Source: Malacoraja senta
Taxonomy: Eukaryota
DNA: 64,000 nt
NCBI GenBank assembly: GCA_038087875.1
Contig: CM075993.1
Span: 2,916,001-2,980,000 of the forward strand
Reading direction: 5' to 3'
Under the pieces are notes generated by a model that was given only the letters and a program-made list of their open reading frames with translations, did not search any database and had not been told where the DNA came from. A program made the translations under genes and the position numbers. How positions within the stretch are numbered: the first letter of the stretch is position 1; every line of letters begins with the position of its first letter. Shown here piece by piece: positions 1,867 through 55,240 of the stretch.

Positions 1867-1989
1867 TATCTGAGGGGTAACTTTCTTACACAAAAGGTGG
1901 TGAATGTATGGAACAAGCTGTCAGAAGAGGTAGTTGAGGCAGGGACTATCCTAACGCTTAAGAAACAGTCAGGCAGGTACATGGATAGG

Positions 1990-14070: not shown

Positions 14071-14623
14071 AGAAAGTCGTTCCAGGTGCGACAGAGGTTC
14101 ACCTGCATCTCCTCCAACCTCATCTATTGCATTCGCTGCTCTAGATGCCAGCTGATCTACATCGGTGAGACCAAGCGGAGGCTTGGCGATCGTTTCGCCG
14201 AACACCTCCGGTCGGTCCGCAATAACCAACCTGAACTCCCGGTGGCTCAGCACTTCAACTCCCCCTCCCATTCCGTATCTGACCTCTCTGTCCTGGGTCT
14301 CCTCCATGCCCACAGCGAGCAACACCGTAAATTGGAGGAAATGCACCTCATATTCCGCTTGGGCAGTCTACATCCTGGGGGTTTGAACATTGAATTCTCC
14401 CAATTCTGCTAGCCCTTGCTGTCCCCTCCCCTTCATCAGCCATCTGGTTGTCTCCTCCCCTCCCCCAGCCCTTGGGCTCCTCCTCCGCCTTTTTCCTTTT
14501 TTCCTTTCTTCTCCCCACCCCCTATCAGTCTGAAGAAGGGTTTCGGCCCGAAACGTCACCCATTTCCTTCGCTCCATAGATGCTGCCTCACCCACTGAGT
14601 TTCTCCAGCATTTTTGTGTACCT
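14071..14623 (+). mobile_element. Penelope-like retroelement 3' fragment (GIY-YIG endonuclease plus terminal module)
   Basis: FTCISSNLIYCIRCSRCQLIYIGETKRRLGDRFAEHLRSV...HF...LEEMHLIFRLGSLHPGGLN is a PLE GIY-YIG domain; stop at 14412, then a pyrimidine tract and the terminal repeat. Flanked by tagaactagtgtct (14057-14070 and 14624-14637). Confidence 0.9.
14530..14557 (+). ncRNA. Minimal type I hammerhead ribozyme motif (Penelope-associated)
   Basis: CTGAAGA-A-GGG(tttcgg)CCC-GAAA-C-GTC: conserved core boxes, stem II, palindromic ACGT in place of helix III, GUC cleavage triplet. Confidence 0.65.
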
Positions 14624-16144
14624 TAGAACTAGTGTCTGGTTGGTTTTCATTGTACCTAGGTACATTTAATAATAAAGTATCATTGATTCATTGAGAGGTT
14701 TTGGGTCAGGACACCTCATCCCAATGGCCCACAACATCACCCATCCATGATCTCCGGAGATGCTGCCTGACCTACTGAGTTACTCCTGCACTTTTATTGC
14801 ATCTGCACTTCCTCACTTCACCACACAATCTCCATTGGGTATCCCCTAGTCTGATCTCCACCAGTCAAAGCTCAAAACTCTTCCTTGAGTTACTGCTTTA
14901 ACGACCATCTATCCACCATCTACAAATTCGCAAGTTCAACTAAGGGGAGAACTAGGCCGTTCGACCCAACGAGTCCAGTCCGCCATTCAATCATGGCTGA
15001 TCTCTGCCTCCTAATCCCATTTATCTGCCTTCTCCCCATAACCCTCGACACCCGTTCTAATCAAGAATTTGTCTGCCTCTGCCTTAAAAATAGCCACCAA
15101 AATAAAAATATCCAAATTATATCAACGCTAGGGAAATATAACTGTTTTTTTTTAAATGACCATTTGAATTGGTTTCTCTGTCACAGACTAATGGATCTCT
15201 GAAACAAAACACGCAAAATTAAACATCTCTCCCTTTCAGATAAGTAATAAATTTACGAAATGATGTTGGTTCCTTGCCAGTGGTGTGAGATGACTTAAAG
15301 GCCAAGGCAAGTGCCAAAATGGTCTACAGAGCAACACTTTAATACTCTAGAATGCAAAGGCTAATGGATCCCAGGACCGATTTAAATTAGTGTCTTGCAG
15401 TGTCACATTTAGACAAGATGTTAATCTAAGGCCCCAGATATGACAGGCATTTAGATAGATAATCTTATCCCACTCCAGAGATTTCAACATAATAATCTAA
15501 ACCGTGTCTTTGAGTCCAGGACAGTGTTTCCTTGGAATGAAATGTTAAACCAGAGGCACTCATTTGAATGGAAAAGACAGCAAGGTAATATTTCAAAAAT
15601 TAACCTTGCCGTATGAGTTAAATCTTTTAATCAATATCGGTTTAAAAACATATTTGTGTGGAAATTAGATTATTTGTGCCCACCTCCAACATGAAACTAG
15701 CACAAAGTGCTTTAGAGAACTTGCCCATTCCTTGAACAGCCGTCACTAGAAAGTTTTTAGCCTTTGTTCCGATTCACCTTGAGCAGGTGTTATTTCTCCT
15801 TGTTTAAGAAGGAACTGCAGATGCTGGAAAATCGAAGGTAGACAAAAGTGCTGGAGAAACTCAGCGGGTGAGGAAGCATCTATGGAGCGAAGGGAATAGG
15901 CGACGTTTCGGGCCGAAACCCTTCTCCATCATGTTTTACTCTCAATGAATCAAGTGTGCGTGCGCGCGGGTCTCATTTTAATCTGTGCGGCACGGTGGCG
16001 CAGTGGTAGAGTTGCTGCCTGATAGCGCTTGCAACGCCGGATTTGATCCTGACCGTCCGTCTGTCTGTAGGGAGTTCGCACGTTCTCCCCGTGACTGCGA
16101 GGGCTTTTTCGGAGATCTTCGATTCCCTCCCACACTCCAAAGAC

Positions 16145-30240: not shown

Positions 30241-31387
30241 GGTTCTTGGTTTCTTGGTCCTCCAAAATATTCCAAATGGAATTTAAACTGGAGGTGGTGG
30301 AGGGAGGACTTAAGCCAGAAAGGGTTCCTATTTGTCCTTGTACCATGACCCCACAGACGAGCACCAGGCCACTATCTCTAGCACCATCAAAGCAGTCTGA
30401 AGAAGGGTTTCGACCCGAAACGTCGCCCGTTTCTTTCACTCCAGAGATGCTGCCGCACCCGCTGTGTTTCTCCAGCATTTTTGTCTACCTTCGATTTTCC
30501 AGCATCTGCAGTTCCTTCTTAAACATCTTATCCAACTGGTCCATGTCCCACCAAACCTTCCCAATCCTCGTATCTGCCCAAGAATCATTGTCTAACTCAT
30601 TTTCACCTCGCCCACAGCTGACAATGGCCTGTTTCCTTCATCATTGTTGCTTTTTTGCTTAAGTTTCATTAATTTGTTCTATATCTCTCTCTCTCTCTCT
30701 ATCACCGTCTATATCTCTCGTTTCCCTATCCCCCGAACTTTCAGTGGCCGGTGTGGACAAGTTGGGCCAAAGGGCCTGTTTCCACACTGCATCACTCTAT
30801 TGATGAAGAGTCTCGACCCGAAACGTCACCCATTCCTTCTCTCCAGAGACGCTGCCTGTCCCGCTGAGTTACTCCAGCTTTTTGTATCAATCTTCAGTTT
30901 AAACCACCATCTGTAGTGCCTTCCTACACAAGAGTCTTGGGTGCTGTTATAATACCTGCCTCAACTACCTCCTCTGGCAGCTTGTTCCGTACACCCACCA
31001 CCCGATGCCTTCACACGTTCATAAGTGATAGGATCAGTGTTAGGCCATTCGGCCCATCAAGTCTGCTCCACCATTCAATCTCTCCCTCCTAACCCCATTC
31101 TCCTGCCTTCTCCCCATAACCCGACACCCGTACTAATCAAGAATCTATCTATCTCTGCCTTAAGAATAACCATCGACTTGGACTCCACAGCCGTCTGTGG
31201 CAATTAATCCCACAGATTCACCACCCGCTGGCTAATGAGAGGGTGAGTTGCTCTTCAGGTTCATATTAAATCTTGCCCCTCTCACTTTAAACACGCGTCC
31301 ACTGGTTTCACGCTTCCTTTACCCTGGGTAAAGGATTCTGTGCCTTCCCCCATCTAATCCCCTCATGAATCGATAAACCTTTACAAG

Positions 31388-31700
31388 GCAGTCACGGTGG
31401 CGCAGCGGTAGAGTTGCTGCCTCACAGCGCTGGAGACCCGGGTTCGATCCCGGCTACGGGTGCTGTCTGTATGGAGTTTGTACGTTTTCTCCCCGGGACC
31501 TGCGTGGGTTTTCTCCGAGATCTTTGGATTCCTCCCGCACTCCAAAGACGTGCAGGTTTGTAGGTTAATTGGCTTGGCGTAAATGTAAATATTGTCCCTA
31601 GTGGGTGTAGGATGGTGTTAGTGTGCGGGGATCGCTGGTCAGCGCGGACCCGGTGGGCCGGTGGGCCTGTTTCCGCGCTGCATCTCTAAACTAAATTAAA
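31388..31700 (+). mobile_element. Full-length tRNA-derived V-SINE (HE1-like)
   Basis: A/B boxes, central domain and CR1-like tail ending ctaaactaaa; flanked by ttacaag on both sides. Confidence 0.85.
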
Positions 31701-31886
31701 CTTACAAGCAACACAGGGACCTTTGTTTGATATATCTTCAAATGACATTACCACTGTTGGCACAGCCTCACAGGGGACATCAGATTAGAATCAGTTGTGT
31801 AGGAAGGAACTGCAGATGCAGCTTTAAACCGAAGACAGACACAAAATGCTGGAGTAACTCAGCAGGACAGGAAGTAAGTCAGCAGG

Positions 31887-32164
31887 TCTGAAGAAGGGTT
31901 TCGGCCTATTTCCTTCGCTCCATAGATGCTGCTGCACCCGCTGAGTTTCTCCAGCATTTTTGTGTACCTGCTGGAGAAACTCAGCGGGTGCAGCAGCATC
32001 TATGGAGCGAAGGAAATAGGCAACGTTTCGGGCCGAAACCCTGAAGGAAATAGGCAACGTTTCGGGACGAAACCCGGAAGGGTTTCGGGCAGAAACGTTG
32101 CCTATTTCCTTCGCTCCACAGACGCTGCTGCACCCGCTGAGTTACTCCAGCATTTTTGTGTACC
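31887..32164. mobile_element. Compound Penelope-derived fold-back element (first central orientation)
   Basis: A direct module followed by an inverted pair; caggacaggaag is duplicated on the flanks. Confidence 0.7.
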
Positions 32165-33470
32165 CAGGACAGGAAGCATTACTGGTTAGAAGATATGGGA
32201 GATGTTTCGGGTCGAGACCCCTCTTCAGATGGGGAGGGGAACATACAGAGATAAGGAAGTGCAAGGTGTAAAAACGAGGGGGGGTGGAGGTAAAGGAAAA
32301 TGTATTAGATCATGGTGAAGGTAGACAAAAATGCTGGAGAAACTCAGCGGGTGAGGCATCATCTATGGAGTAGGCGATCTTTCCCGGGTCGAGACCCTTC
32401 TTCAGACTCGAACAAAAACATTGCCTGCTCCCTTTCTCCTTAGCCGCTCCCTCACCCGCTGAGTTTCTCCAACATTTTTTTTCTACTTTCGATTTTTCCA
32501 GCATCTGCAGTTCCAATAGACAACAGACAGCAGGCGCAGGAGTAGGCCATTCGGCCCTTTTAGCCAGCACCGCCATTCAATGTGATCATGGCTGATGATC
32601 CTTCTTAAACATTGAGAGCTTGGACATCAGATTAGGTTTGTTCCTTGGATTTCAAGCCAGCGTTGTCCCAGTTCAAAAAAAGGCAAGAGCTACACTTATT
32701 AAAACCCAAGGGGGCAGGGAGAAAAATGAACCAAATCTGTTAGCTTTGGGGGGGGTTTTCTCAACTCTGAAATCTGCTTCTCACAGTGCAGCAGAACACG
32801 CACAACACACAGCTCGAGAAGGACAGGCGAGTGCTATTTGTTAAACTCACGGCCGCCCCACTCTTGTGCTGGGGATGACGTGTCTGCAGATGAATCCAGG
32901 GCCCCGACAGAAACCCAAAACAGGCTCGATGAAGGAACCCTCGTGCTGCGTTCGTCTCCATGGTAAAAATAGTCACACAGACACCCTGGAGCTATTTGTT
33001 GATGGAGCGAGCTGATAGCAACGATTCGAGTCCCTGGGGGGGATGAGAGGACAACATGCAGAGCAAGCGGCTGAAAGAAACAAAGGTAGCCGCCAATAGT
33101 CACAATAAAGTAAGCCATGGCAGGGATAAAGGGAAGAAGAACTGGATGAAATATTTTGCGCGACAGGATTTTAGAGGAAATGATCACGTTTCTTTCATTT
33201 ATCCATCGGACTGCAGGCGGCACAGTGGCGCAGCGGTAGAGTTGCTGCCTCACAGCGCCAGGGACCCGGGTTCGATCCCGACCACGGGTGCTGTCTGTAC
33301 GGAGTTTGTACGTTCTCCCCATGACTGCCATGGGTTTTTATCCGGGTGCCCCGGTTTCCTCCCACAGCCCAAAGACGTACAGGTTTAGAGGTTAATGGTC
33401 GATGTGTCTGTGTCTGTGTCCGTGTGATAGCGTTAGCGCGTGTCAGTGTGTGTTAGCGTTAGCGTGTCAA

Positions 33471-33473
<3 letters not shown>

Positions 33474-33535
<62 letters not shown>

Positions 33536-33950
33536 AATAGACAATAGGTGCAGGAGCAGGCCATTCGGCCCTTCGAGCCAGCACCGCCATTCAATGTGAT
33601 CATGGCTGATCATCCCCAATCAGTACCCCGTTCCTGCCTTCTCCCCATATCCCCTGACCCCGCTATTTTTAGTGTGCGTGATAGCGCGTCTGTGTGTGTG
33701 TGTGTGTGTGTGATAGCGCGTCTGTGTGTGTCTGTGTCTGTGTGATAGCGCGTCTGTGTCTGTGTCTGTGTGTGTCTGTGTCTGTGTGATAGCGCGTCTG
33801 TGTCTGTGTGTGTCTGTGTCTGTGTGATAGCGCGTCTGTGTCTGTGTCTGTGTGTGTCTGTGTCTGTGTCTGTGTGATAGCGCGTCTGCGTCTGCGTCTG
33901 TGTGTCTGTGTGTGTGTGTGCGCGTGTGTGTGCGTTTGCGTGTAATAGCG
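33474..33950. repeat. (TG)n and (GATAGCGCGTCTGTGT...)n minisatellite, interrupted by a CR1 tail
   Basis: Direct reading. Confidence 0.9.
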
Positions 33951-34559
33951 TTCGTGTGCGGGGATCGCTGGTCACCACGGACTCAGTGGGCCCGTTTCCA
34001 CGCTGTATCTCCAAACTAAAACAACTCTCGACTTGGCCACTTAACACGTCATTTATCTTACCTCAACGGCAAGTTTCCACATCCAACAAGTGGTCAAATA
34101 TTTATCAAAGCAAAATTAAATATTATGGCCCGCAAACTAATCTATTGATTTCTTGTTTGGTTTTATATGGATGCTGACCTCCAGAGCTTAACAAAGTGAA
34201 AATAAATATTTAATTATCCCCCTAAATAAAAATCAATATTCCGCAGTTCGCTAAATAAATTGGTCCCATAAATTCTCAAAATGTGACTGCAACAATTGGA
34301 TTCTCCAAAGAGAGTCAACTCTCACTCACTGGAGATGGGAAAGGAGGTGACAATATAACAAAAGAGGCAACATTTATCGTGAGTTTCTCAAGTCGATAGT
34401 TTCCAATTATTTGTCCCAGCAATATCTTTATCATCTTCTGAATTTTTTTTTCTTTCGGGCAAGTCCCCTTGGTATGGACGGCAATTCTGGAGACTCCAGA
34501 AGTAGCTGAAGATCCCAATGTCAGACAGGATGGGGCAGGTTGCATTTGTTGTGGGCAGT

Positions 34560-35725
34560 TGTGACGACACCACCATTGTGGGCTGGATACCAAACAATGA
34601 GACCGAGTACAGGAAAGAGATCGAGAACCTCGGGACCTGGTGTCGAGACAACAACCCTACTCTCAAAGGTAGACATAAATGCTGGAGAAACTCAGCGGGT
34701 GAGGCAGCATCTATGGAGCGAAGGAATAGGTGACGTTTCGGGTAGAGACCCTTCTTCAGACTGATGTGGGGGCGGGAAGAAGAAAGGAAGAGGCGGAGAC
34801 AGTGGGCTGTGGGAGAGCTGGGAAGGGGAGGGGAAAGAGGGAGAAAGCAAGGACTACCTGAAATTGGAGAAGTCAATGTTCATACCGCTGGGGTGTAAAC
34901 TACCCAAGCAAAATGAGGTGCTGCTCCTCCAATTTACAGTGGGACTCACTCTGGCCATGGAGGAGGCCCAGGACAGAAAGGTCGAATTCGGAATGGGAAC
35001 TAGACTAGTCTGAAGATGGGTCTCAACCCGAAAAGTCACCTATTCCTTCGCTCCATAGATGCTGCCTCACCCGCTGAGTTTCTCCAGCATTTTTGTCTAC
35101 CTTCGATTATTCCAGCATCTGCAGTTCTTTCTTAAACCCTTCTCTCAATGTCAGCAAGACAAAGGAGGCCGCGATCGACTTCAGGAAGCCAAACGGTACA
35201 CATACTACAGTTTGCATTGACGGCGTTGAAAACTCCAAATTCCCAGGAGCCAATGTCACCAACAACCTTTCCTGGAACATTCATATTGAAGTAACGAACA
35301 AGAATGCACACCAACGCCTCTACTTCCTTAGGAGGCTTAGGAAGTTTGGCATGTCAATGACAACTCTCACCAACTTCTACAGATGCTCCATAGAAAGCAT
35401 TTTATCAGGATGCATCCCAGCTTGGTTTGGGAACAGCTCCATCCAAGACGGCGAGAAATTGCAGCGAATTGTGTTCGCAGCCCAGACCATCGCACAAACC
35501 AACCTCCCTTCTACTGACTCCATTTATACCTCACGCTGCCTCGGCAAGGCCAGCAGCATAATCAAGGACCAGTCGCACCCTGGCCACTCCCTCTTCTCCC
35601 ATCGGGCAAAAGCTATAGGTGTGAAAACGCACACCTCCAGATTCAGGAACAGTTTCTTCCCAGTTTCTTCCCATCAGGCAATGCCATCATCCTACCACAA
35701 CCAGAGAGCAGTACTGAACTACCAC
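34560..35725 (+). mobile_element. Rex1/Babar-like LINE RT fragment interrupted by a Penelope piece (34667-35135)
   Basis: DDTTIVGWIPNNETEYRKEIENLGTWCRDNN...SLNVSKTKE..IDFRK...QRLYFLRRLRKFG...FYRCSIESILSGCIPAWFG; aaccct(a/t)ctctcaa is repeated at the insertion borders. Confidence 0.85.
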
Positions 35726-36429
35726 TGAAGAACGCACAAACTCCACACAGATCGCACCCCGAGTCAGGATCGAACCAGGGACTCTGGCGCTGCAAGGCAG
35801 CAACTCTACCGCTGTGCCACCATGCGTTGGCGAGGAAGATACACTTTCTCTCTCCCCTCCCCCCCCAAATATCTTTCACTGTTCAACTACTTTCAACAAC
35901 TACTACTAGTGGGGTTACACGAGTGAGAGGGGGGGGGAGGGAATCTACAAGGAACCAGAATGGATTCGATTGGGGAAAGAATTCTCCACAAGTTTCAATC
36001 TTAATATTGCAGGGGGAAGTTTCACTCCAAGCGCTTACTTTTATTTTATTTTATTTTTTTAAAGTCTGCGATTCAGCTAGGCCACAAAATGAAAAAGCAA
36101 TAAAATTTTATTAAAACTCGTTTTTGCAGTTCAATTCTCAAGCCTGTCAAATCATTCATTATTCATTGGATTTACAAGGTTTAAAAAAAAATCAACACCA
36201 GTACTAACTGCGTTCAAGGTGAACGTTTAATGGTCTGGAAAGTCTACTAAAATGTCTACAGTATAAAGTCCAATGGTATGGACAGGTATCGTTAGTTCAG
36301 TCCTCCACATTGGGTAGTTCAGACACTCTATTAAAGCCCGTCTCTGTTACTGATCCTCTGAACACTTCGCATTGCACGGCTAGCAGGAATACAAGCCGAA
36401 GATACACAAAAAAGCTGGAGTGACTCATG

Positions 36430-36725
36430 CACCCACTCCAACCTCATCGACTGTATCCGCTGTTCCAGGTGTCAACTCCTCTACATCGGCGAGACCAAGC
36501 GCAGGCTTGGCGATCATTTCGCTGAACACCTCCGCTCAGTCCGCCTAAACCTACCTGATCTCCCGGTGGCTCACCACTTCAACTCCCCCTCCCATTCCCA
36601 ATCTGACCTGGGCCTCCTCCATTGTCAGAGTGAGGCCCAGTGCAAATTGGAGGAACAGCACCTCTATTTCACTTGAGCAGCTTACACCCCAGCGGTATGA
36701 ACATTGACTTCTCTAACTTCAAGTA
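36430..36725 (+). mobile_element. Degenerate Penelope GIY-YIG fragment
   Basis: Homologous to 14100-14412 (SNLIDCIRCSRCQLLYIGETKRRLGDHFAEHLRSV). Confidence 0.85.
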
Positions 36726-36780
36726 GCCCTTGCTTTCCCTCTCTCTCCATACCCTCCCCCTACCCAGTTCTCCCACCCAG

Positions 36781-37071
36781 TCTGAAGAAGGGTTTCGGCC
36801 CGAAACGTTGCCTATTTCCTTCGCTCCATAGATGCTGCTGCACCCGCTGAGTTTCTCCAGCATTTTTGTGTACCTGCTGGAGAAACTCAGCGGGTGCAGC
36901 AGCATCTATGGAGCGAAGGAAATAGGCAACATTTCGGCCCGAAACCCTTCCGGGTTTCGTCCCGAAACGTTGCCTATTTCCTTCAGGTTTCGGCCCGAAA
37001 CGTTGCCTATTTCCTTCGCTCCATAGATGCTGCTGCACCCGCTGAGTTTCTCCAGCATTTTTGTGTACCTT
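36781..37071. mobile_element. Compound Penelope-derived fold-back element (inverted central orientation)
   Basis: Same outer architecture as 31887-32164; cagttctcccacc(c)agtct is duplicated on the flanks. Confidence 0.7.
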
Positions 37072-38814
37072 CAGTTCTCCCACCAGTCTTACTGTCTCCG
37101 ACTACATTCTATCTCTGTACCACCCACTCCCTTGATATCAGTTTGAAGAAGGGTCTCGTCCTGAAACATCACCCATTCCTTCCCTCTAGAGATGCTGCCT
37201 GCCCTGCTGAGTTACTCCAGTTTGTGTCTATCTTCGGTTTAAACCAGCATCTGCAGTTCCTTCCTACACAAGAATACAAGTCGAATGGTCAGGCTTTCAG
37301 GAAGCATTGGTCCCACACACATATCTCACCCTCTCTATCGCCACATATTATCAACATAAGCTGATCCATAAATCACTTATTCTTATTTATGCTAAAACCA
37401 TTACGATCTGGCTTCTGCTAATCATTGAATTTGATGCAGTTACAGCAGTTTAGTGCCACTCACAAGATCAGTCCTTGGCATAAAACATTGCGTTAGAGTC
37501 GTCGCCATTCTATTAGTCTAAGCTGCATCCAGCTCGAGTCGCATTGGTACAGGGTGGGGAGGTTTGCTGCAAGCCGTTTCATCCGGTGTCGTGGTTTACA
37601 ACTTTAAACATGCATCCAAGATAAAAGTCCACAAAGCAGACCAAGTATCTCCTCTCTGGAGCAGTGACAGAGATTCTCTCATCATTCTTTGAGGTATTGA
37701 ATCCCTTGATTCCATTAGCCCCAAGAGCTAAATCTAACTCTTGAAAGCATCCAGTGAATTGGCCTCCGCTGCCTTGTGGCTGAGAATTCCACAGATTTAC
37801 AAATCTCTGGGTGAAAAAGTTCTTCCTCATCCAACACCTAAATGGCCGACCCCTCATTCTTAACCCGTGACCCCTGGTTCTGGACTGCCCCAACATGGGG
37901 AACATTCTTCCTGCATCTCGCCTGTCCAATCCTGTGAGAATTTAATATGTTTCTACAAGATCCCCCCCCTCATCCTTCGAAATTCCAGTCAATACAAGGC
38001 CAGTCGACACAGTCTTTCATCATATGTCAGTCCCGCCATCCCGGGAACTAATCTGCTGAGTTACTCCAGCATTGTGTGTCTACCTTCGATTTAAACCAGC
38101 ATCTGCAGTTCTTTCTTACACAATCAAACCACTGGATCTGCAAGGACTCTGATACAATTAATAACACTTATACATGTCATATACTGCAAAAGGTCACAGC
38201 AGTAGACGTTGTATTAAACTATAAGCGAGGCTGCATGAATACTGATGAACTTTGAAACTTCTAAAAAAGTTTTAAATGTGCAGTTTTACAAACAAAAGGG
38301 GGCGCAAGCCTCCACGTGGCGCATCCCGGGCAAAGCTGATGACAGAAACTGTACCACAGTGTCTGACTGAAGTAGCCAATTCTGCAACCACCGACCGTCA
38401 ACCGTCACTGACCGACCGGAAAGACGTGATATAGAAGATGGCCGGACACGAGGAAGAAGACAAACAAAAGGAGGGAAAATATGGAGGTAGCATCTCCTCA
38501 CCCGGACCGAGAGGATGTCATGCCCAGATTTACAAAGGACAGCATGCTTCTATTGCCTGTGGATTTTAGATGAGGTAGACAAAAGGGATGGTAGACGAAA
38601 ATGCTGGAGAAACTCCGCGGGTGAGGCAGCATCTGTGGAGCGAAGGAAATGGGTAACGTTTCAGGCAGAAACCCTTCTACAAAGAGAGCAAAGGGATCCT
38701 AGGATCGTTCTTGTAAACCTCTCTGGATCCTCTCCAGAACCAGCATATCCTTCCTCAAATATGGGGCCCCAAATTGCTCACAAAACTCCAAATGCAGCCT
38801 GACCAACAGCTTAT

Positions 38815-39335
38815 AGAAACATAGATACATAGAAAATAGGTGCAGGAGTAGGCCATTCGGCCCTTCGAGCCTGCACCGCCATTTGATATGATCATGGCTG
38901 ATCATCCAACTCAGTATCCCATCCCTGCCTTCTCTCCATACCCCCTGATCCCTTTAGCCACAAGGGCCACATCTAACTCCCTCTTAAATATAGCCAATGA
39001 ACTGGCCTCAACTACCTTCTGTGGCAGAGAATTCCACAGATTCACCACTCTCTGTGTAAAAAATGATTTTCTCATCTCAGTCCTAAAAGACTTCCCCCTT
39101 ATCCTTAAGCTGTGACCCCTTGTCCTGGACTTCCCCAACATCGGGAACAATCTTCCTGCATCTAGCCTGTCCAACCCCTTAAGAATTTTGTAAGTTTCCA
39201 TAAGATCCCCCCTCAATCTTCTAAATTCTAGCGAGTACAAGCCGAGTCTATCCAGTCTTTCCTCATATGAAAGTCCTGCCATTCCAGGAATCAGTCTGGT
39301 GAACCTTCTCTGTACTCCCTCTATGGCAAGAATGT
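38815..39335 (-). mobile_element. CR1 LINE 3' fragment (young subfamily)
   Basis: ORF 38911-39282 is the CR1 RT C-terminus. Confidence 0.9.
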
Positions 39336-42059
39336 CTTATAGAAGCTCAGTATTATCTCTTGCCCCAACACCACCCCATTCCTCCCACCACCTCTCAAAA
39401 ATAAAGAGAGATCTCCTAAACCTTCAACTGAGATTTCTAGACCCATTATCCAGCATGGTTAGCATCATGGCAATCTCTTCCTACAGAGTACCTCAAGATG
39501 TTTCAGCCTACATACAGGAGCCATTGCACAAATGGAAATTGTTCACCAAGGTTTTATTTCTAGAGTTGGGTTGCCAAGAAGGGAAGTGCAGTGGCAAGGG
39601 CAGCAGTGACAAGTGGCAGCAACAAAACAGCATCAACAGCACCAAGTAATCACCAAAAATGTTCAACTCCTTGATGAACCACTATGAACTTGCAGTGTCA
39701 AATCTGGTTTCCCCGAGATGTTGCCTAAACCACCAAGGATCCCAAAATTGGATTAAGTTGGGATTTTGACATCAGTTATTTTGCTTATAGAAAAATAAAA
39801 CCATGTGTATAAAATTATGAGAGGAATAAATTGGGTAGATGCACAGAATCTCTTGCCCAGAGTGGTGGTGGTGGTGGTGGGGAGGGGTGGGGGAGAGAGA
39901 AATCGAGCACATAGATTCAGGGTGAAGGAGAAAAGATTTAATGGGAATCTGAGGGGTAACATTATCACACAAAGGGTGGTGGGTGTATGGAACAAGCTGC
40001 CAGAGGAGGTAGTTGAGGCTGGGACTATCCCAGTTAGACATGTACATGGATAGGACAGGTTTGGAGGAATATGGACCAAACGTGGGCAGGTGGGGCTAGT
40101 GTGGCTCTGACATGTTGGCCGGTGTGGGCAAGTTGGGCCGAAGGGCCTGTTTCCACACTGTATCACTCTATGACCCAATTCTCCTAGGTGAAGGAAGTCC
40201 AAGCTGCAGGACTAGAGGAACACGCATTGGAGGCAAATTCAACCAGACTGTACTTTCCCAGGCAGAAACTTCCAAACCCCCGTGGAGAAACAAGACTGTA
40301 TTTCCCACTTTGTGAGGGTGAGCATTTAGCAAGGAAGCCACCCCATTCAAAAAGCCACCCATCCCTGCAAAACAACACAATGCTCACAACATAACATGAC
40401 CCTAATAACAAAGATAGACACAAAAAGCCTGGAGTAACTCAGCGAGACAGGCAGCATCTCTGGAGAGAAGGATGGATGACGTTTTGGGTCGAGACCCTTC
40501 TTCGGACTGGTTAGGGAAAAGGGGTACGAGAGATATAGATGATGTAGAGAGATAAAGAACAATTAATAAAAGTCATCGACATTTTTTTTGCATATCTTAT
40601 GAGAGAAATGTAAAAAAGAAAAAACACAATATTAAGCACGTTAACCAAAAAAGTATTTTTATATAATGGTCAAATTTCACACCCAAAAACTTCATCCCAA
40701 GTCCAATCTCACAAGACACCTTGACCAGAGCAAATATTGTAGAAAATTGTTATCTGCTTATACTAGATCTATTTAACAAATGTGTTAACTGCTCCTCATT
40801 GGGCAAAAGTTTTTTCCCCCCCCCAGAGATAGGAAACAGGTATGTTTACACTAGACACTAGACACTAGAAACTAGACACTAGACACAGGAGTAGGCCATT
40901 CGGCCCTTCAAGCCAGCACTGCCATTCAATGTGATCATGGCTGATCATCCCCAATCAGTACCCCGTTCCTGCCTTCTCCCCATATCCCCCGACTCTGCTA
41001 TTTTTAAGAGCCCTATCTAGCTCTCTCTTGAAAGCATCCAGAGAACCTGCCTCCACCGCCCTCTGAGGCAGAGAATTCCACAGACTCACCACTCTCTGTG
41101 AGAAAAGTGTTTCCTCGTCTCCGTTCCGTTCTAAATGGCATGTAAACTCTGGAATGCAAACTGATACGGGGACGATTCCTCGCCCATTAAATGCTGATCT
41201 AAATACACTAAAACATGTTGAGCAGTCATGTAATTGGAACTGAAGATGGACACCAAAGCTGGAGTGACTCGGCAGGACAGGCAGCGTCTCCGGAGACGAG
41301 GAATGGGTGACGTTTCGGGACGAGACCCTTCTTCAGAAGAGCTGCTGCGTGTAGAGCATGTAATGTCATCATAGAAGAAACCCCCCTTCTTAACACTGAC
41401 GATCACACCACAGACTTACAATATTTAAAGTTTTTAAAAAAAATAAACAGAACGATAAATATTCCTAACTTTTTGTTTTAACGTGAAGCATCAGTAATCG
41501 CAGCATTAGGAAAGTCCTGAAGGGCACTCAGGCCTTATGTAGAGTTTAAGTAATAACATTTTCACCAGCTCCGTGGTGCAAAACCCCTGTCAATCCTTGT
41601 GTGAATAGCTGCTGCAACTTATCAACGGATAGCTTCGGTGGCGAACAATTGTCAGTGGCTTTGAAAAGGAAATGGGTGATTTTCGTGTTGCTAACAGCAG
41701 GGAAATTTAGAGTTTGTGGGCGGGGTAAAAAGGCTGGTGGATTCACCTTCGCTTTCTTTCTCCCCCCCCCCCCCCCCCCCCAACGAACCTCCATCCGTGC
41801 ATCTCCTCCAAAATTGTCTGAAGAAGGGCCTCGACCCAAAACTGATGCTGGTTTAAGCCTATCTTCGGTTTAAACCAGCATCTGCCGTTCATTTCCTACA
41901 ACACGGAAAGTGCTGAAAATGTTGGACAGCTCCCTTGTTAGATAACTCAACGCGGAGACACTGCAGTGGGAACCCGGTCCACAACGTCAGGCAATGTCAC
42001 CCCGTGCAAGCCGTACTCTTGACCACCTTGAAATTAAGGAACGGAGACGCGTGTCATTT

Positions 42060-42590
42060 TGGCAGAGAGTAACTCACGAATTCTCCCGAGTTTTCCCCAC
42101 CTCGATTCGAACTCGCAGAATGTCCGCAGCCCGTCCGTAGGAGGTCGTAGATATTTCGTAGCGGCTCGTAATGCCGGCTGTAGGTACTCGAAGCATCAGG
42201 TAAAAGTGGGGATTTTTTTTCAGCATGTTGAAAAATGTCCACGAGTTTAAAAAAAAAAATAGCCCCGAGTACCTACGGCTGGCATCTCCGAGTTTGAATC
42301 AAGGGGAAAACTCGGGAGAATTTGTGAGTAACTCGGGAAAGTGGGACAGGGCCTTTAAGGCCCTGTCCCACTTTCCCGAGTTACTCACGACTTTTCCCCT
42401 CGATTCAATCTCGGAGAATGCCCGTAGCGAGGTCGTAGGAGTCCGTAGATATTTCGTAGCGGCTCAGCCGTAGGTACTCGAGGCATCAGGTAAAAGCCGG
42501 GACGGTTTTTTTCAGCATGTTGAAAAATGTCCACGAGTAAAAAACAAAAAAAAGCCCCGAGTACCTACGACTGGCATCTCCGACTTTCCC
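42060..42590. mobile_element. Two abutting Harbinger-like MITEs
   Basis: Terminal repeats meet at gggcct-TTA-aggccc (42355-42357). Confidence 0.75.
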
Positions 42591-43399
42591 CATGCAGGAG
42601 AACTCCCCCTTCTCTTTCCCCCCCCCTACAAACGTTGCAATCGACTCGTATCTGCCACAACTTTAATAACATCACCAGACAGCAGATTAGAAATTCCCCC
42701 GTTGTCGTTGCAAAATAATGCAAACGGTGTTTTTCTCAATTAAGCAGGAAAAATATGAATGCTAAAAACAGCCACCCACCCACCCCACCCCACGCTACAG
42801 GCAAGAATAAATACCAGGTACACAAAAATGCTGGAGAAACTCAGCGGGTGCAGCAGCATCTATGGAGCGAAGGAAATAGGCAACGTTTCGGGCCGAAACC
42901 CACATGGGCTTGAGCTTCACATTAAGTACTGCAGTCTCGCTTTGGAAACGGAAGGCAACAATAGATGGAGACGCGACTTGGGTCCCTCGGTTGCTCTGGG
43001 ACGCCTCCCACAACACAGCCCATCATAGTCACAATATCGGCTCAATCGTGTGACTGCCGCGATGCAAATGCTAAATGCAGTAAGGGGCAGCCAACACTTA
43101 ACACAGACCACTATGCCGGAGAGAAAAGATCAAAAATCGGCTGTGTTACGGGCCTGTCGCACTCTTCAGGCGACTGTCAGGGACTAGTGCTAGCATTCAC
43201 CTCGCGACAACCTACGACAAACCTCCGACAGTAAAAATGGTTGCCACTGTCGCTTGTAGTCGCCCAAAAGATCGCCTAAGTGGGACAGGCCCTTTATGCA
43301 GCCCAACAATACGATTTCATCTAACTAGTTGCCACTGCTCAATGTGATCGACGTGCATTTCAAGATTGGTTAGCAAGGCGTGGAGTTTAACCTATAACC

Positions 43400-43803
43400 A
43401 TATAACCATAACAGCACGGAACAGCCATCTCGGCCCTTCAAGTCCGTGCCGAACATTAAAAATAAATAAAAAATACTTCCCCCTAGTCCCATCTACCTGC
43501 ACTCAGACCATAACCCTCCATTCCTTTTCCCGTCCATATACCCATCCAATCTATTTTTAAAGGATAACATCGAACTGCCTCCACCACTTCCACTGGAAGC
43601 TCATTCCACACAGCTACCACTCTCTGAGTAAAGAAGTTCCCCCTAATGTTCCCCCTAAACTTCTGTCCCTTAATTCTCAAGTCATGTCCCCTTGTTTGAA
43701 TCTTCCCTACTCTCAATGGGAAAAGCTTATCCACGTCCACTCTGTCTAACCCGCTCATAATTTTAAAGACCTCTATCAAGTCCCCTCTTAACCTTCTGCG
43801 CTT
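43400..43803 (-). mobile_element. CR1 LINE 3' fragment (third subfamily)
   Basis: IEVFKIMSGLDRVDVDKLFPL...FFTQRVVAVWNELP. Confidence 0.85.
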
Positions 43804-44845
43804 AAACGCAGAGGGGGGGGGGGGGGCGAGAACTCAGTCCCGGGTACAAACTGTACATAATCCGAATTTTCACTCAGGCTATTTGTCCGGTATTGTATTG
43901 TATGACACTTATTTGCACACAGAAAAGTCGTGCAGAATTAGGATTGTGTTTAAAAATTTACAAGACGAGGTCTTTTTTTTCTTTTTTTTTAATAAGTAAA
44001 ACAACTTTGCATATCCAGGGTTATAAGTTGCTCGTTTCAGTGGAAGCAGGACGTCACTTCGCCGACGATCAGCGTGTGAGGATGAGTGTCACATCACGAC
44101 TCGGTTTTAGCAGCGACGGTAACTAACTACACATATTGGGTCAACAAACACATTTGGCGTCTCTCATCCACAAGGAAGTACCTGGTTCACAACCGTGCCC
44201 GGACACGCCAGGGGTATTCATGGAGGCACTTGCCTCGCCACAGATCCGAATATTAACATGTCTGCAACTTGTCACAAGTCACAGAAAGATTCAAACATTG
44301 GAAAGTGGGCAAGTCAAATATCCGCACGGGGAGGGAGGACATAAGCATCGTCGCTCTCCCCCCCCCCCCCCCCCCCCCCCCCAACTCTCCAATGTCCACT
44401 CCAGTTCCCATCTTAACTGGTCAAATACAACAATACAGTTCAAGGAAAACACAAAGCATAATTCAGTGCCAGTTTGAACAGTCTTACAGAGTCGGAGCCA
44501 AAGCGAAAAACAAAACACACACACACACACACATCAGCAATACGTGTTTTTTTCCCCTCAACAGATTTGTCTATTAAGCAAGCAATATACAACGCGAAAT
44601 CTTGCAGCGATCTCGTTGTCGACTGCAATGTCACATCCAGCAACTGACAAGACTGATCGACGTGTTGTTATATAGGAGAAGGGGGAATGAAGTACAGAAA
44701 TCGCTCTCCACCTCTCTCACGTGGAAGCTATTAATGAGAGATCACAGAAGGATTCCACCCAGACAGCGCAACTCGCAACAGGGTGGAGGAGAGGGGAGGG
44801 GGGGGAGGTTTTCCAACACTCTGCAAACAGGCTTCGTCTACTTAC

Positions 44846-44928
44846 CCCTGGTAATGTCTTCTGTTCGTGTAGCGCACTCTGTGCTTTGAGCGCCGAGTCC
44901 CTGGCACAGTACGTGAGAAAGGCACAGC
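44846..44928 (-). CDS. CELF6: CELF-family coding exon 2 (RRM1, including RNP1)
   Basis: Not in the ORF track. Acceptor tttctaacgcag|GC, 83 nt encoding (G)[27 protein letters not shown], donor GGG|gtaagt. Phase matches exon 1 (G+GC=Gly). 'CARDS' is the CELF3/5/6 state (CELF4 has CERES); with '[11 protein letters not shown]' this points to CELF6. Confidence 0.9.
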
Positions 44929-45501
44929 CTGCGTTAGAAAATGAGCAAGTTTACTCTCCACTGGAAACGCCAGTGTATTCAATGCATCGAGTAGCGTCTG
45001 TCTATCTATACGGCAGATAAAACACACACACACACACAAAATGTGTAGGAAGGAACTGCAGGTGCTGGTTTAAACCCAAGATAGACACAGAAAGCTGGAG
45101 TAACTCAGCGGGACAGGCAGCATCTCTGGAGAGAAGGAACGTTTTGGGTCAGAACATTTTCAAACTAGGAGGCTCAGATTCAACAAATTTCACTTTTACC
45201 CGGGCACCTATTATTTTGTTGTGTGTGTGTGGTGTGGTGTGGTGTGTGTGTGTGTGTTTTAAATCTCGCCTCCACTTTACAACCGCCCTCCCCAGTCCAA
45301 GTTAAATTCAGGTCCCTTCACGCAGCGACTCAAAGTACAGGAATGAAACTGTTTAGGAAACGCGTTCGTTCGGATAACTGGTTAATTGAAACTTTTTAAC
45401 GTCTCATGAGAGCAGCTGCCTAATGTCAGAGGAGAGAGGGAGAGGGGGAGAGAGGGAGAGAGGGAGAGAGGGGAGGAGGGGGAGATTCACCACGATGATG
45501 T

Positions 45502-45771
45502 GTTTAAGAAGGAACTGCAGAAGCTGGAAAATCGAAGGTAGACAAAAATGCTGGAGAAACTCAGCGGGTGCAGCAGCATCTATGGAGCGAAGGAAATAGG
45601 CAACGTTTCTGAAGAAGGGTTTCGGCCCGAAACGTTGCCTATTTCCTTCAGGGTTTCGGCCCGAAACGTTGCCTATTTCCTTCGCTCCATAGATGCTGCT
45701 GCACCCGCTGAGTTCCTCCAGCATTTTTGTCTACCTTCGATTTTCCAGCATCTGCAGTTGGTTCTTAAACA
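45502..45771. mobile_element. Penelope-derived fold-back element containing a hammerhead motif (45609-45636, + strand)
   Basis: ~105-bp near-perfect inverted arms around ctgaagaagggtttcggcccgaaacgtt. Confidence 0.75.
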
Positions 45772-46194
45772 ACCTACAAACCTGCACGTCACCCGCTCAC
45801 ACACTAGTTTAGTTTGAAAGATACAGCACGGAAACAGGCCCTTCGGCCCTCCATGCGACACACACACGAGGGGGTGGGGGTGGGAGCAATGGGAAAGGAA
45901 CATGTAACATCCCAGAGAATAACATGCGGACACTTCACACGGTTATGTCTTAGAAGACTCAGTGTGAGTGTGTGAGTGGAGTGTGAGTGTGAGTGTGAGT
46001 GTGAGTGCGAGTGTGAGTGCGAGTGTGAGTGCGAGTGTGAGTGCGAGTGCGTGTGAGTGTGTGTGAGAGAGAATCCAACAAGCTCTTTCTTCCTGCAGGA
46101 AGGAACTGCAGATGCTGGTTTACACCGAAGATAGACACAAAATGCTGGAGTAACTCAGCGGGACAGGCAGCGTCTCCGGAGAGAAGGAATGGGT

Positions 46195-46222
46195 GACGTT
46201 TCGGGTCGAGACCCTTCTTCAG
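46195..46222 (-). ncRNA. Minimal hammerhead motif, sense to CELF intron 1
   Basis: Minus strand reads ggt-CTGAAGA-A-GGGT(ctcg)ACCC-GAAA-C-GTC-acc; stem I is only 3 bp (GGU/ACC). Confidence 0.6.
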
Positions 46223-46649
46223 ACCAAACGTGTGCAGGTTAATTTACAGAATAAAGTTATTGACATCTCCAGTTAGATCTACTCCATAAACCAATGGGAG
46301 GAAACGCATCTCCAATAAGGCCCTCGCTGCACCGGTGATGTAACAAGCTCGGACCAGCCGTGGGGTGTATTCAAGAGAGAGTTCGATTACAGCTCTTGGG
46401 GCTAACGGAATCAAGGGATATGGGGAGAAAGCAGGAACGAGGTGCTGATTTGGGATGATCAGCCACGATCATATTGAATGGCCGACTCCTGCACTGATTT
46501 TCCATGTTTCTACTGATTACACGAGTTGACCATATTTTGTGGTCAGTAACTATCGTGCACTATTACCCGAGGTGGACAATAAATGTTGGAGAAACTCAGC
46601 GGATGCGGCAGCATCTATGGAGCGAAGGAAATAGGCAACGTTTCGGGAC

Positions 46650-47195
46650 GAAACGTTGCCTATTTCCTTTGCTCCATAGAAGGGTTTCGGCCCGAAACGT
46701 TGCCTATTTCCTTCGCTCCATAGAAGAAGGGTTTCGGCCCGAAACGTTGCCCATTTCCTTTGCTCCATAGAAGAAGGGTTTCGGCCCGAAACGTTGCCTA
46801 TTTCCTTTGCTCCATAGAAGAAGGGTTTCGGCCCGAAACGTTGCCGATTTCCTTTGCTCCATAGAAGAAGGGTTTCGGGCCGAAACGTTGCCCATTTCCT
46901 TCGCTCCATAGAAGAAGGGTTTCGGCCCGAAACGTTGCCTATTTCCTTCGCTCCATAGAAGAAGGGTTTCGGGCCAAAACGTTGCCTATTTCCTTCGCTC
47001 CATAGAAGAAGGGTTTCGGCCCGAAACGTTGCCTATTTCCTTCGCTCCATAGAAGAAGGGTTTCGGGCCAAAACGTTGCCTATTTCCTTCGCTCCATAGA
47101 AGAAGGGTTTCGGCCCGAAACGTTGCCTATTTCCTTCGCTCCATAGAAGAAGGGTTTCGGCCCGAAACGTTGCCTATTTCCTTCGCTCCATAGAA
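46650..47195 (+). repeat. Tandem array of twelve ~47-bp units derived from the Penelope terminal module
   Basis: Unit gaaacgttgcctatttccttcgctccatagaagaagggtttcggccc, with starts at ~46650, 46694, 46741 and every 47 bp to 47164. Confidence 0.95.
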
Positions 47196-48284
47196 GCTGC
47201 CTCACCCGCTGAGTTTCTCCAGCATTTTTTGTCTACCTTCGATTTTCCAGCATCTGCAGTTCCTTCTTAAACACACGCAGTGTTACCTAGTGTGGACCTT
47301 CAGTAAGTAGACCAGGTCTGCCTATCCATCTATCTATACACACACACACACACGCCATCAAAAAGAGATTAAAAACAAGGAAAACTCAACATTAGAATAA
47401 GAACAAGGGTTTGAAATGATACAATTTACCTGACCTGTCAGGCCTCAACTATTAATCAGCCGCCGTTTCCACCAATCTACACAAACACACACCAGACAGG
47501 ACTGTGTGCCTTACACCCGCTGGTCCAATATAGAATTTAAAGTAAAGGGGGGATTTAAAATGGAGCTAATTAACAGATTGGACATGAAAAGTGCAATCAG
47601 ACTGATTGGGGGGAAACCCGGTGTTAATTATCGCACGGCACTAGAAGCAAGAATGGATGCATGGACTTGGAGTTTGTACATTTTAGGAAAGGTTTAATCG
47701 CTGTGAATTGGCACAAATGCACTTTAATTCGAGATATTAACACAATCTGGAGAAGGGACAGTCCAGCGTCAGTTTTAAATGCAGGACTACTTTTTGGTTT
47801 TGTTTAGAGATTTACAGCGAAGGCTCAGCTAGAGATCCAGGGTCCAAATCAACGTGAACAAATAATCAACTTTGGACGGGTGATTAGGAAGATCGGTTTA
47901 TTACATTGGATTGTGGGGGTGGGCTTTTTTATTTTTAAGGCGACCGGGGAGTCGCAGATGTGGACATGGTAAACCCATTCCTCCCAACATCTGTAATAAG
48001 TGCCGGGGCAGAGAGGGGCGGACACACACATACACAGCTGGATGTAGTGGGTTTGTACATTCAGGAAACTTTAATGACGGCTTGGTGGATGTTACGGAGA
48101 GGGGAGAGGGGGAGAGGAGAGAGGGAGAGAGGGAGAGAGGGAGAGGGGGAGAGGGGGGAGAGAGAGGGGGCAAAATATAAAGCACAGGAGGGTTTAGACA
48201 GGGGGCAGAGGTGGCAGAGGAGGGGGTGTTGGTGATTGGATATAGGAGAGAAGAGGCATGTCATAGAGAAGCAACCCTTTCCCT

Positions 48285-52755: not shown

Positions 52756-55240
52756 ATTTCATGAGTAATTTATGTACGATTTATATGTTGGTGTATGTGT
52801 CTAATTCCATGTGCCTGTGGGGCCCCTGCTGTCCCTGTACAGTTGACTCGAGACACAAGGAACTGCAGAAGCTGGGAATGTTGAGCAATAAGGAAAAGGC
52901 TGGAGGAACCTAGCGAGTCTGGCGACTTCCATGGAGGGAATGAACAGAGGACATTTTGGGTAGATAGACACAAAGTGCTGGAGTAACTCAGCGGGACAGG
53001 CAGCATCTCTGGAGAGAAAGAATCATTCCTTCTATCCAGAGATGCTGCCTGTCCCGCTGAGTTACTCCAGCTTTTTGTGCCTATCTTCGGTGTAAACCAG
53101 CATCTGCAGTTCCTTCCTGGACATTTTGGATAGGCCCCTTCTTCCCTCTATAGCTGTCGCCTGGCCTGCTGAGTTCCTCTTGTTTTTGCTTGACTTGACT
53201 TGACTTGATACCCAATGTCCCAGTAGCCTCTTGTGTAGTGTGGGCTTCCATAACACCCAGCTTAGGTTACACTAACATCCACACACTGCTTAAAACCAAG
53301 TGGATGAAGGGTCGGAGGATGGCATAAAGGTCACGACCCGAAAACTCATGTCAGCCCAGTCTTAAACGACACTTTTCCTCCTGAAGCCTGAGCACTATCT
53401 CTAAAATCCCATTGATCGCAGTCTTGAATGTCCACGGCTAAACATCATGAGGCATAAGCGACAGGAGCAGAATTAGGCCATTCGGCCCATCAAGTCTACT
53501 CTGCCATTCAATCATGGCTGATCTATCTCTCCCTTATAATCCCATTCTCCTGCCTGCTCCCCATAACCTGTGACCCCCGTACTAATCTAGAATTCCCCAT
53601 TAATGAATGAGTAAGTTTATTTGCCAAGTATTCCCATACAAGGAATTTGCCTTGGTGCTCCCGCCCACAAGTGACAACATGATATACAGTGACAGTTAAG
53701 AATGATACATAAAACATTAAACATTAATAAGAAAACATTATTGATTAATTTCCCCTATGTACAACTCTCCGGCCAATACCTATCCACACTAGTCCAGTTT
53801 TTTTACAGCAGCCTTTTAACCAATCATAAATTATCCGGAAGAAAACTTGGCCATTCGGCCCAACGAGTCCACTCCGCCATTCAATCATGGCTGATCTATC
53901 TTTCCCTCTCAACCCCATTCTCCTGCCTTCTCCCCATAACCCCTGACACCCGCACTAATCAAGAATCTATCAATCTCTGTTGTTAAGAAATACCCATTGA
54001 CTTGTCCTCCACCACCTTCTGTGGCAATGAGTTCCACAGATTCACCACCTGTGGATAACACCATTCTACCTCACTTCCAATTTGAAGGCACATGGATAGG
54101 ATAGGTGTAGAGGTGATATGGGCCAAATGCAGGCAGGTGGAACTAGTGTAGATGGGACATGTAGGCCCAAGGGGGCTATTTGCATGCTGTATGACTCTAT
54201 GACTCTCTCGGCAGCGAAAAGACTACGTGTGATAACATTCAAGCTGCCCACAGTGTACGGGTACAGGATAGGAACGTTGTGTAGGATGCGTCTACAACTG
54301 GACGGAACCGGGGATGAGATTGGGTGAGGGGGGAGATGAGGTGGTGTTGGGAGAGCAGCCTACCTGGGCTCCTGCTCTGATCTGGTATCCAGTGACCTCT
54401 GCTGGAAAGCATGTGTAGACAGGAGGAAAATAGCACCAGATGGAGCAGATATAATGTGTGGGAAGACAATAGACAATAGGTGCAGGAGTAGAGGCCATTC
54501 GGCCCTTCAAGCCAGCACCGCCATTCAATGTGATCACGGTTGATCATCCCCAATCAGTACCCCGTTCCTGCCTTCTCCCCATACCCCCTGACTCCGCTAT
54601 CTTTAAGAGCCCTATCTAGTTCTCTCTTGAAAGCATCCAGAGAACCTGCTTCCACCACCCTCTGAGGCAGAGAATTCCACAGACTCACAACTCGCTGTGT
54701 GAAATTCCACAGACTCACAACACACCATATCTGCCCAAACTTGCGGGCTATAAAATCTGCTGATGTGCAGCTGTAGAATGTGATGTTAAATCTTCTCAGC
54801 ATCTGAACAGATATTGCTTTGGCATTGGAAGCAAAGCCACGTCAGATGGGCCCAATGCCAAATGAGTAATACCTAAAGAAATTTTCGGTCATGTTCACAA
54901 TGATATTTATGAATTTCTCTGTATTTATAATTTTGAAATTTTGGAATTTAGGAATCGCAGATGCTGGTTTAAACCAAAGATAGACACGAAAATGCTGGAG
55001 TAACTCAGCGGGACAGGCGGCGTCTCTGGAGAGAAGAATGGGTGAGGTTTCGGGTCGAGACCGTTCGTCAGTCTGGCTGGTGTTGGAGAGGGTCCGGTGG
55101 AGGGTTAATTATTTTTTTTTTAAATATTTATTTTATTAGAAACAATTCTACAAGGAAAAAGTGATCGACATAAAAATTATACAAATTTTCATACAGCTTC
55201 AGTTTTAACATTTTATAAACTAAAAACTTAATCGGAAGGG

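What the first reader, a model, noticed from the sequence alone, without database searches (positions are those of the whole stretch)
31887..37071. Two compound fold-back elements are flip/flop isomers
Seen: 31887-32164 and 36781-37071 share outer orientation and the same odd junction (...tttttgtgtacc|tgctggagaaac...). The loop between the inverted arms reads ctgaaggaaataggcaacgtttcgggacgaaacccggaagggtttcggg in the first and the reverse complement (cccgaaacccttccgggtttcgtcccgaaacgttgcctatttccttcag) in the second. The junction atttccttcagggtttcgg reappears at 45641. Each copy has its own flanking duplication (~12 and ~18 bp), suggesting independent insertions. Established: flip/flop loops mark hairpin-primed copying or recombination between inverted arms. 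Inference: a palindromic derivative propagates as a unit through a hairpin or template-switch intermediate.
Basis: partly seen in the sequence, partly recalled or inferred. Interest (0 to 1): 0.75.

Follow-up and report, generated by a model that had tools for sequence, protein, structure and literature searches.

The report
Flipped hairpin in Penelope retroelement fragments
Two neighbouring jumping-gene fragments in a skate-like fish genome are the same three-armed hairpin insert with its centre turned back to front; this is real, but it is built from ordinary Penelope retroelement ends and is most simply explained by known strand-switching at inverted repeats.

Summary
Copies A (31886-32164) and B (36778-37071) share the layout (+arm)(-arm)(loop)(+arm) and an outer junction found nowhere else in the window. 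One inversion of 58-184 bp converts A into B, leaving 5 substitutions and 2 internal deletions. Each has its own target duplication (12 and 13 bp). Head-to-head fold-backs occur about ten times in the window; the tail-to-tail outer junction only in A and B, and one half of it is a preferred family end. The same loop lies in contigs of two related species, so the inner fold-back does spread as a unit. Whether the whole compound does, and whether the flip is tied to reverse transcription, is untested: no genome is held and no run confirmed the locus. Best reading: one compound, two insertions, one ordinary template-switch or arm-exchange inversion. The scan already reported PLE fold-backs in shark-type genomes, and loop flips in giant-virus repeats, as mostly ordinary.

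The parts
31863..31874 (.). Copy A left target-site duplication (12 bp), inside an older PLE end lying on the - strand (about 31797-32229)
   Evidence: older arm pieces 31793-31885 and 32172-32229
31875..31885 (.). 11-nt filler at A's 5' junction, apparently templated from the flank at 31854
   Evidence: 12 of 13 match; 4 such matches in the window on both strands, itself included
31886..31969 (+). A arm 1: young-type pseudo-LTR end; 12-nt deletion near 31903 removes the second half of the hammerhead core; stops at the family's short 3' end
31958..31981 (+). Tail-to-tail outer junction (12-nt loop between arm 1 and arm 2), identical in B
31969..32042 (-). A arm 2 (inverted), 74 of 74 identical to B arm 1
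32043..32076 (-). A short unit: 34-nt partial repeat of the arm's 5' part, without the CUGA core; reversed relative to B
32077..32164 (+). A arm 3; carries the flipped palindrome centre (32089) and four private substitutions (32091, 32119, 32123, 32144)
32165..32176 (.). Copy A right target-site duplication
36431..36673 (+). GIY-YIG endonuclease remnant of the older PLE whose 3' UTR received copy B
   Evidence: 44% identity over 81 aa (E 9e-19) to an RT + GIY-YIG protein
36765..36777 (.). Copy B left target-site duplication (13 bp)
36778..36875 (+). B arm 1 with an intact minimal hammerhead motif (core starts 36782); short 3' end
36875..36950 (-). B arm 2 (inverted); one private CpG-type change (36931) and the flipped palindrome centre (36938)
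36951..36984 (+). B short unit, exact reverse complement of A 32043-32076
36985..37071 (+). B arm 3; 1-nt deletion at its start; ends 2-3 nt further than A arm 3
37072..37084 (.). Copy B right target-site duplication, followed by the rest of the older PLE (3' UTR, hammerhead region, long tail to about 37270)
45501..45776 (.). Copy C: simple head-to-head fold-back sharing only the tandem-duplication junction (45641); different head-to-head junction, no outer arm, both ends long

Best explanation
A and B are two non-autonomous insertions of one compound made of Penelope-like pseudo-LTR ends. Shown: arm identity, layout, shared junctions, separate target duplications, a single inversion. From the literature: PLE protein nicks and extends both target strands and starts reverse transcription at two internal sites, which gives short and long ('tail') ends and direct/inverted compounds. 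Inferred: (1) an older, widespread head-to-head fold-back with a 34-nt duplication gained an outer arm once, by snap-back or template jump at the preferred short end; (2) the compound was transcribed and inserted in trans at two sites, both in older PLE ends; (3) the centre was inverted once between the near-perfect 74-bp inner arms by ordinary DNA template switching or arm exchange, in a source copy or after insertion at one locus.
For: Outer junction identical and private to A and B: 0 of 15 other young-type arms stop where arm 2 starts, which favours one origin. Distinct duplications, distinct 5' junction chemistry (filler versus microhomology) and 3' ends differing by 2-3 nt favour separate target-primed events. 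A cannot be B's template in its present form: it lacks B's last bases and has a 12-nt deletion. PLE identity: GIY-YIG with two cysteines in the core and RT + C-terminal GIY-YIG homologues; 12 minimal-hammerhead motifs against 0 in each of 20 shuffles; short/long end classes 8 and 7 of 15. B's inner unit folds as a long DNA hairpin, z -23.5. Loop inversion by template switching is described (PMC8794818 passages).
Against: The loops reported inverted in PMC8794818 were 4-8 nt, here at least 58 bp. Only two copies, so a one-off flip and a recurring flip look the same. Finding both isomers 4.9 kb apart in the same orientation is not explained by this model unless the compound is common or copying was local. 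Tail-to-tail joints near the short end recur in related genomes (tables 5 and 5c), so an independent origin of the outer junction is not excluded. Four of five substitutions fall in A arm 3 (binomial 0.0025 for that arm, about 0.02 over eight segments), unexplained.
Confidence: 0.5

Rival explanations
1. The flip is part of PLE mobilisation (closest to the first reader). The near-palindromic inner unit is transcribed from either strand, or the reverse transcriptase switches strand in the hairpin, and the outer arm is added at a fixed geometric point, so both isomers are produced and spread.
For: Whole-unit reversal fits exactly as well as a loop flip. The loop exists in two other species. One half of the outer junction is a preferred family end. 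Self-priming, antisense templates and possible bidirectional transcription are proposed for PLEs (PMC3846280 Discussion); both strands are cut and extended in vitro (PMC11167929).
Against: Needs the other half of the outer junction to recur to the base; 0 of 15 other young-type arms break there. Arm 1 is not a second pass over arm 3 of the same molecule: its 5' context and A's private changes differ. No third copy of the compound was seen.
Confidence: 0.25
2. Local copying: A was made from B (or from a transcript through B) and inserted 4.9 kb away, the inversion, the 12-nt deletion and the substitutions arising in that one error-prone copy through two hairpins.
For: Proximity and same orientation; B is nearly unmutated and complete, A carries 5 of the 7 differences; the third copy sharing a junction is 8.6 kb from B.
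Against: B has two private changes absent from A (36931, 36985), which must then be later; proximity-biased retrotransposition is not shown by anything I read; the junction shared with copy C is common in related genomes, so C is no evidence of locality.
Confidence: 0.15
3. Assembly or consensus artefact: one loop orientation, or A's private changes, come from hairpin read errors or mis-polishing in a very high-copy family.
For: No run confirmed locus A: its left flank had no depth in X1 and X2, and no listed piece crosses the outer junction. Substitutions cluster in one arm.
Against: Clean target duplications at both loci; four features flip in concert without scars; both loop junctions exist in register in contigs of unrelated runs; the elements are under 300 bp, far shorter than long reads.
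Confidence: 0.07

Closest known systems
Complex insertions of canonical endonuclease-positive Penelope-like elements (direct plus inverted pseudo-LTRs, optional 30-40 bp tail); PMC3846280, PMC8557442
   Same: Two direct arms and one inverted arm inside one target duplication; palindrome at the head-to-head junction; short and long 3' ends; mobilisation in trans of pLTR-only structures; insertion into older PLE copies.
   Different: Usual order has the inverted copy at the 5' end, head-to-head; here it is sandwiched, giving an added tail-to-tail junction, which PMC3846280 treats as the less frequent outcome. No ORF inside. Orientation isomers of one compound were not found in my six paper searches.
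Minimal hammerhead motifs of metazoan PLE pseudo-LTRs; PMC4209133
   Same: Type I core, extra base before stem II, G-C first pair, palindromic helix III; pairs of motifs on opposite strands close together are reported there.
   Different: Only B arm 1 keeps the full core; the inverted arms, short units and A arm 1 lack part of it, so a dimeric ribozyme cannot form within either compound (inference). Cleavage not tested.
Template-switch mutation, 'loop inversion only' class; PMC8794818
   Same: Sequence between inverted arms is reversed while arms and flanks keep their orientation.
   Different: Reported loops are 4-8 nt in rRNA genes; here 58 bp or more between 74-bp arms, in separately inserted retroelement copies.
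Non-LTR retrozymes (bioRxiv 10.64898/2026.07.22.740005)
   Same: Short non-coding PLE-derived repeats around the hammerhead.
   Different: Retrozymes are head-to-tail arrays with a complete hammerhead in each unit; A and B are inverted compounds with at most one complete core.
Flip/flop termini of parvovirus and poxvirus genomes (recalled; named in passing in PMC8794818)
   Same: Two sequence isomers of a hairpin centre.
   Different: Those are genome ends regenerated at each replication round by nicking and extension; these are internal chromosomal insertions with target duplications and no viral gene.

Membership tests
Penelope-like element (canonical EN+), as source of the arms | C-terminal GIY-YIG endonuclease with two cysteines inside the core, upstream of the pseudo-LTR | tested here: met
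   Frames at 36431-36673 and 14104-14409 run into the same arm; homologue P0022 has RVT_1 then GIY-YIG above Pfam cut-offs. The 81-aa window fragment alone gave no Pfam or PDB hit.
Penelope-like element (canonical EN+), as source of the arms | Telomerase-like reverse transcriptase in the same ORF | tested here: inconclusive
   No PLE RT was read from the window; RT is present in database homologues of the endonuclease. No tree was built, so the clade (Poseidon, Neptune, other) is not assigned.
Penelope-like element (canonical EN+), as source of the arms | Minimal hammerhead motif in the pseudo-LTR | tested here: met
   12 motifs with my own descriptor, 0 in each of 20 dinucleotide shuffles; stem II fourth pair U-A 7, U-G 4, mismatch 1; palindromic CG in 10 of 12. 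Rfam listed no hammerhead family among 61 matches in 31000-47500. Descriptor core recalled and fitted after seeing the sequence.
Penelope-like element (canonical EN+), as source of the arms | Optional 30-40 bp tail: two classes of 3' end | tested here: met
   Of 15 young-type arms outside A and B, 8 stop at the short end and 7 run about 36-38 nt further (read).
Penelope-like element (canonical EN+), as source of the arms | Direct and inverted partial copies within a variable-length target duplication | tested here: met
   Duplications of 12 and 13 bp at A and B, 16 bp at 1974/2286, 10 bp at 63451/63553; about ten head-to-head pairs.
Non-LTR retrozyme | At least two consecutive head-to-tail units each with a complete hammerhead | tested here: not met
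   One complete core in B, none in A.
Viral-type flip/flop hairpin replicon | Both isomers regenerated at each round at a free genome end, in about equal numbers | not testable with these tools
   Two copies only, both internal with target duplications; no genome held.
Template-switch loop inversion | Inverted segment bounded by inverted arms, length kept, flanks unchanged | tested here: met
   Single inversion with breakpoints inside the arms explains all concerted differences; length differs only by B's 1-nt deletion. The enzyme responsible cannot be read from sequence.
Self-propagating non-autonomous subfamily (whole three-armed compound) | Many dispersed copies sharing the diagnostic outer junction | tested here: inconclusive
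   2 copies in 64 kb; none in JGI metagenome contigs, which held no sign of this family; one search listed 32 of 453,165 pieces, none across the junction.

The most novel reading that the evidence does not exclude
A protein-less, hairpin-forming Penelope derivative spreads through skate-like genomes as a unit and turns its centre around during retrotransposition, so that counting its isomers gives a direct genomic read-out of the still undefined strand-switch step by which PLEs build inverted repeats.
Probability: 0.2. Interest if true: 0.65.

Novelty: new member of a known kind. Interest (0 to 1): 0.3.

Why it matters
How Penelope-like elements form their tandem and inverted structures is stated to be unresolved (PMC8557442 passages; PMC11167929). 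A short compound with several diagnostic junctions in a genome with a huge PLE load is a cheap natural marker: the genome-wide ratio of the two isomers would tell whether inversion happens during mobilisation or afterwards. If it is a one-off DNA-level flip, it is only a neat example of two known processes.

Tried and rejected
Own genome: none held, so no genome-wide junction count. Rfam on 31000-47500: only sub-threshold hairpin matches (mostly microRNA models), no hammerhead; read as long stems, not microRNAs. Pfam and PDB on the 81-aa endonuclease remnant: nothing. Outer junction in JGI metagenome contigs: 0; arm motif in viral contigs: 0; arm motif in metagenome contigs: 1 match with unrelated flanks, taken as chance; these collections do not hold this animal, so the blanks say nothing. 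Sequencing runs: no RNA holder listed. Contigs of X1-X4 on 31690-32320: the family swamped the tables (104,850-141,897 records laid per run); left flank without depth in X1 and X2; no empty-site joint among the 15 of 534 joints shown; summed depth not used as copy number. Only copy A was laid; B was not. Rejected ideas: arm 1 as a second pass over arm 3 of the same RNA (contexts differ); A-to-I editing as the source of A's T-to-C changes (wrong strand for the templates considered; two sites only); the single-base variant in the short unit as a private marker (it also occurs at 46655 and is common in contigs); copy C as a third isomer (shares one junction only).
Full report
What is there. The window is repeat-rich animal DNA; the closest protein relative of its endonuclease remnants is from a skate (89% identity). 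One roughly 95-135 bp module recurs throughout (79 local matches to one copy). Copies A and B each consist of a + arm, an inverted arm, a 34-nt partial arm and a final + arm. The quoted strings are correct. The 24-mer across the outer junction is found at 31958 and 36864 only; the 25-mer across the head-to-head junction is on + in B and on - in A. Testing every inversion with ends in 31969-32074 and 32050-32164, one inversion halves the alignment cost (23.4 to 12.1); 64 symmetric breakpoint pairs tie, from 58 bp to the whole 184-bp inner fold-back. What remains is a 12-nt deletion and four substitutions in A, and one substitution and a 1-nt deletion in B.

What the arms are. Upstream of B the + strand reads as a GIY-YIG domain with two cysteines in the core; a second such remnant at 14104-14409 runs into the same arm. 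That remnant matched 25 of 59 candidate longer proteins, mostly from sharks and rays, one of them a 902-aa protein with RT followed by GIY-YIG. The arm begins with a minimal hammerhead motif: 12 matches in the window, none in 20 shuffles, with U-A/U-G variation in stem II and a palindromic helix III in 10 of 12, as described for PLE pseudo-LTRs (PMC4209133, first two of four parts read). Young-type arms end either at a short site (8 of 15) or about 36-38 nt further (7 of 15), the PLE 'tail' signature that PMC11167929 (first two of four parts read) traces to two internal start sites of reverse transcription. So these are PLE ends. The clade was not determined.

How ordinary the architecture is. 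PMC3846280 (passages and Discussion) describes two direct plus one inverted pseudo-LTR within one target duplication, palindromes at inverted junctions, mobilisation in trans, and says head-to-head is the frequent and tail-to-tail the alternative product of self-priming. PMC8557442 (passages) calls tandem/inverted insertions typical and their origin undefined; PMC2377424 (passages) reports inverted termini as the most frequent form in Drosophila virilis. In the window, neighbouring arms within 60 bp were 11 head-to-head, 3 tail-to-tail and 18 direct; one of the 11 and one of the 3 are A abutting the older copy it landed in, leaving 10 and 2. The only true tail-to-tail junctions are therefore those of A and B. 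Half of that junction is the preferred short end; the other half is not shared by any of the 15 other young-type arms.

Independent insertions. A has a 12-bp duplication and an 11-nt filler resembling the flank; B has a 13-bp duplication and joins by microhomology; both sit in older PLE ends. B ends 2-3 nt further than A. These are marks of two target-primed events from a shared template (inference). A cannot be the template of B as it stands; B could be the template of A.

Outside evidence. No genome is held. Of 24 runs listed, the best held 0.59 of the sampled words and 13 others about 0.3. Four were laid on copy A, all as short-read contigs. They did not confirm the locus: no depth on the left flank in two runs, and no listed piece across the outer junction, with only 32 of 453,165 pieces shown. 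They did show the loop elsewhere: an 83-nt piece from X2 (32017-32099, 5 differences, no gap) and an 85-nt piece from X3 (32023-32107, 8 differences) cross both loop junctions; in the window the nearest match other than A or B has 22 and 27 mismatches. Pieces crossing the duplication junction alone occur in X1, X3 and X4. Other head-to-head and tail-to-tail joints near the same sites recur in all four runs (tables 5, 5c; most rows not shown). So the inner fold-back is an older, shared unit, and the junction at 45641 is a common family feature, not a sign of a third isomer.

Mechanism. The simplest history is one origin of the three-armed compound, two insertions, and one inversion between the inner arms, which fold strongly as DNA (z -23.5). 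Loop inversion by template switching is described (PMC8794818, passages), though for much shorter loops. Because the inner unit is nearly palindromic, copying it from the other strand gives the same picture, so a flip tied to PLE reverse transcription stays possible, as does local copying of B to A. Unexplained: the closeness of the two copies and the clustering of four of five substitutions in A arm 3.

Novelty. Six paper searches found no report of orientation isomers of a PLE compound or of these elements in skates; the library lacks most subscription papers, and I did not open supplements, where PMC4209133 and PMC8557442 may list cartilaginous-fish examples. The retrozyme preprint (first part and passages) sampled one chondrichthyan and concerns head-to-tail arrays. 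Earlier notes of this scan reported PLE fold-backs in shark-type genomes and loop flips in giant-virus repeats as mostly ordinary; I reached the same reading before seeing them and do not count them as support. Verdict: real, a new member of a known kind, interest 0.3.

Noticed in passing
window 13886-14636: Compound PLE insertion with the 9-11 bp target sequence present three times: before a head-to-head fold-back, between it and a 5'-truncated GIY-YIG-bearing copy, and after it; suggests repeated priming at one site.
   Followed up: partly
window 1987-2285, 13892-14057, 32317-32514, 34663-35137, 46570-47273, 52962-53127, 45501-45776: Six of these seven clear head-to-head fold-backs have one short and one long (tailed) end; 45501-45776 has two long ends; A and B have two short outer ends (read). 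Fits priming of the two target strands at the two start sites.
   Followed up: partly
window 46631-47240 and 2077-2176: 47-nt head-to-tail arrays (about 11-12 and 2 extra units) of the hammerhead half of the arm, inside fold-backs; units lack the CUGA core, so retrozyme-like in layout but not by the published criterion.
   Followed up: partly
window 34663-35137 and 35093-35728: A fold-back with a long PLE endonuclease/UTR loop interrupts a coding remnant that matches Pfam PF09004; that this family marks the C-terminal part of LINE reverse transcriptases is recalled, not tested.
   Followed up: no
window 31797-32229, 36431-37270: Both compounds landed inside older PLE ends; PMC11167929 proposes nicking in the element's own pseudo-LTR. 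Two cases only, in a window dense with such ends.
   Followed up: no
window 36791-36805 and all young arms: Stem II of the young hammerhead overlaps a 15-nt quasi-palindrome (7-bp arms, one centre base) and a second short palindrome at helix III; several head-to-head junctions fall in or next to them.
   Followed up: partly
window 31384-31700 and 33215-33400: Copies of a second abundant short repeat with a tRNA-like head, probably a SINE (resemblance recalled, not tested).
   Followed up: no
window 42307-42406: A separate hairpin of about 38-bp arms, unrelated to the PLE arm, picked up by Rfam microRNA models below threshold; possibly a MITE-like repeat.
   Followed up: no
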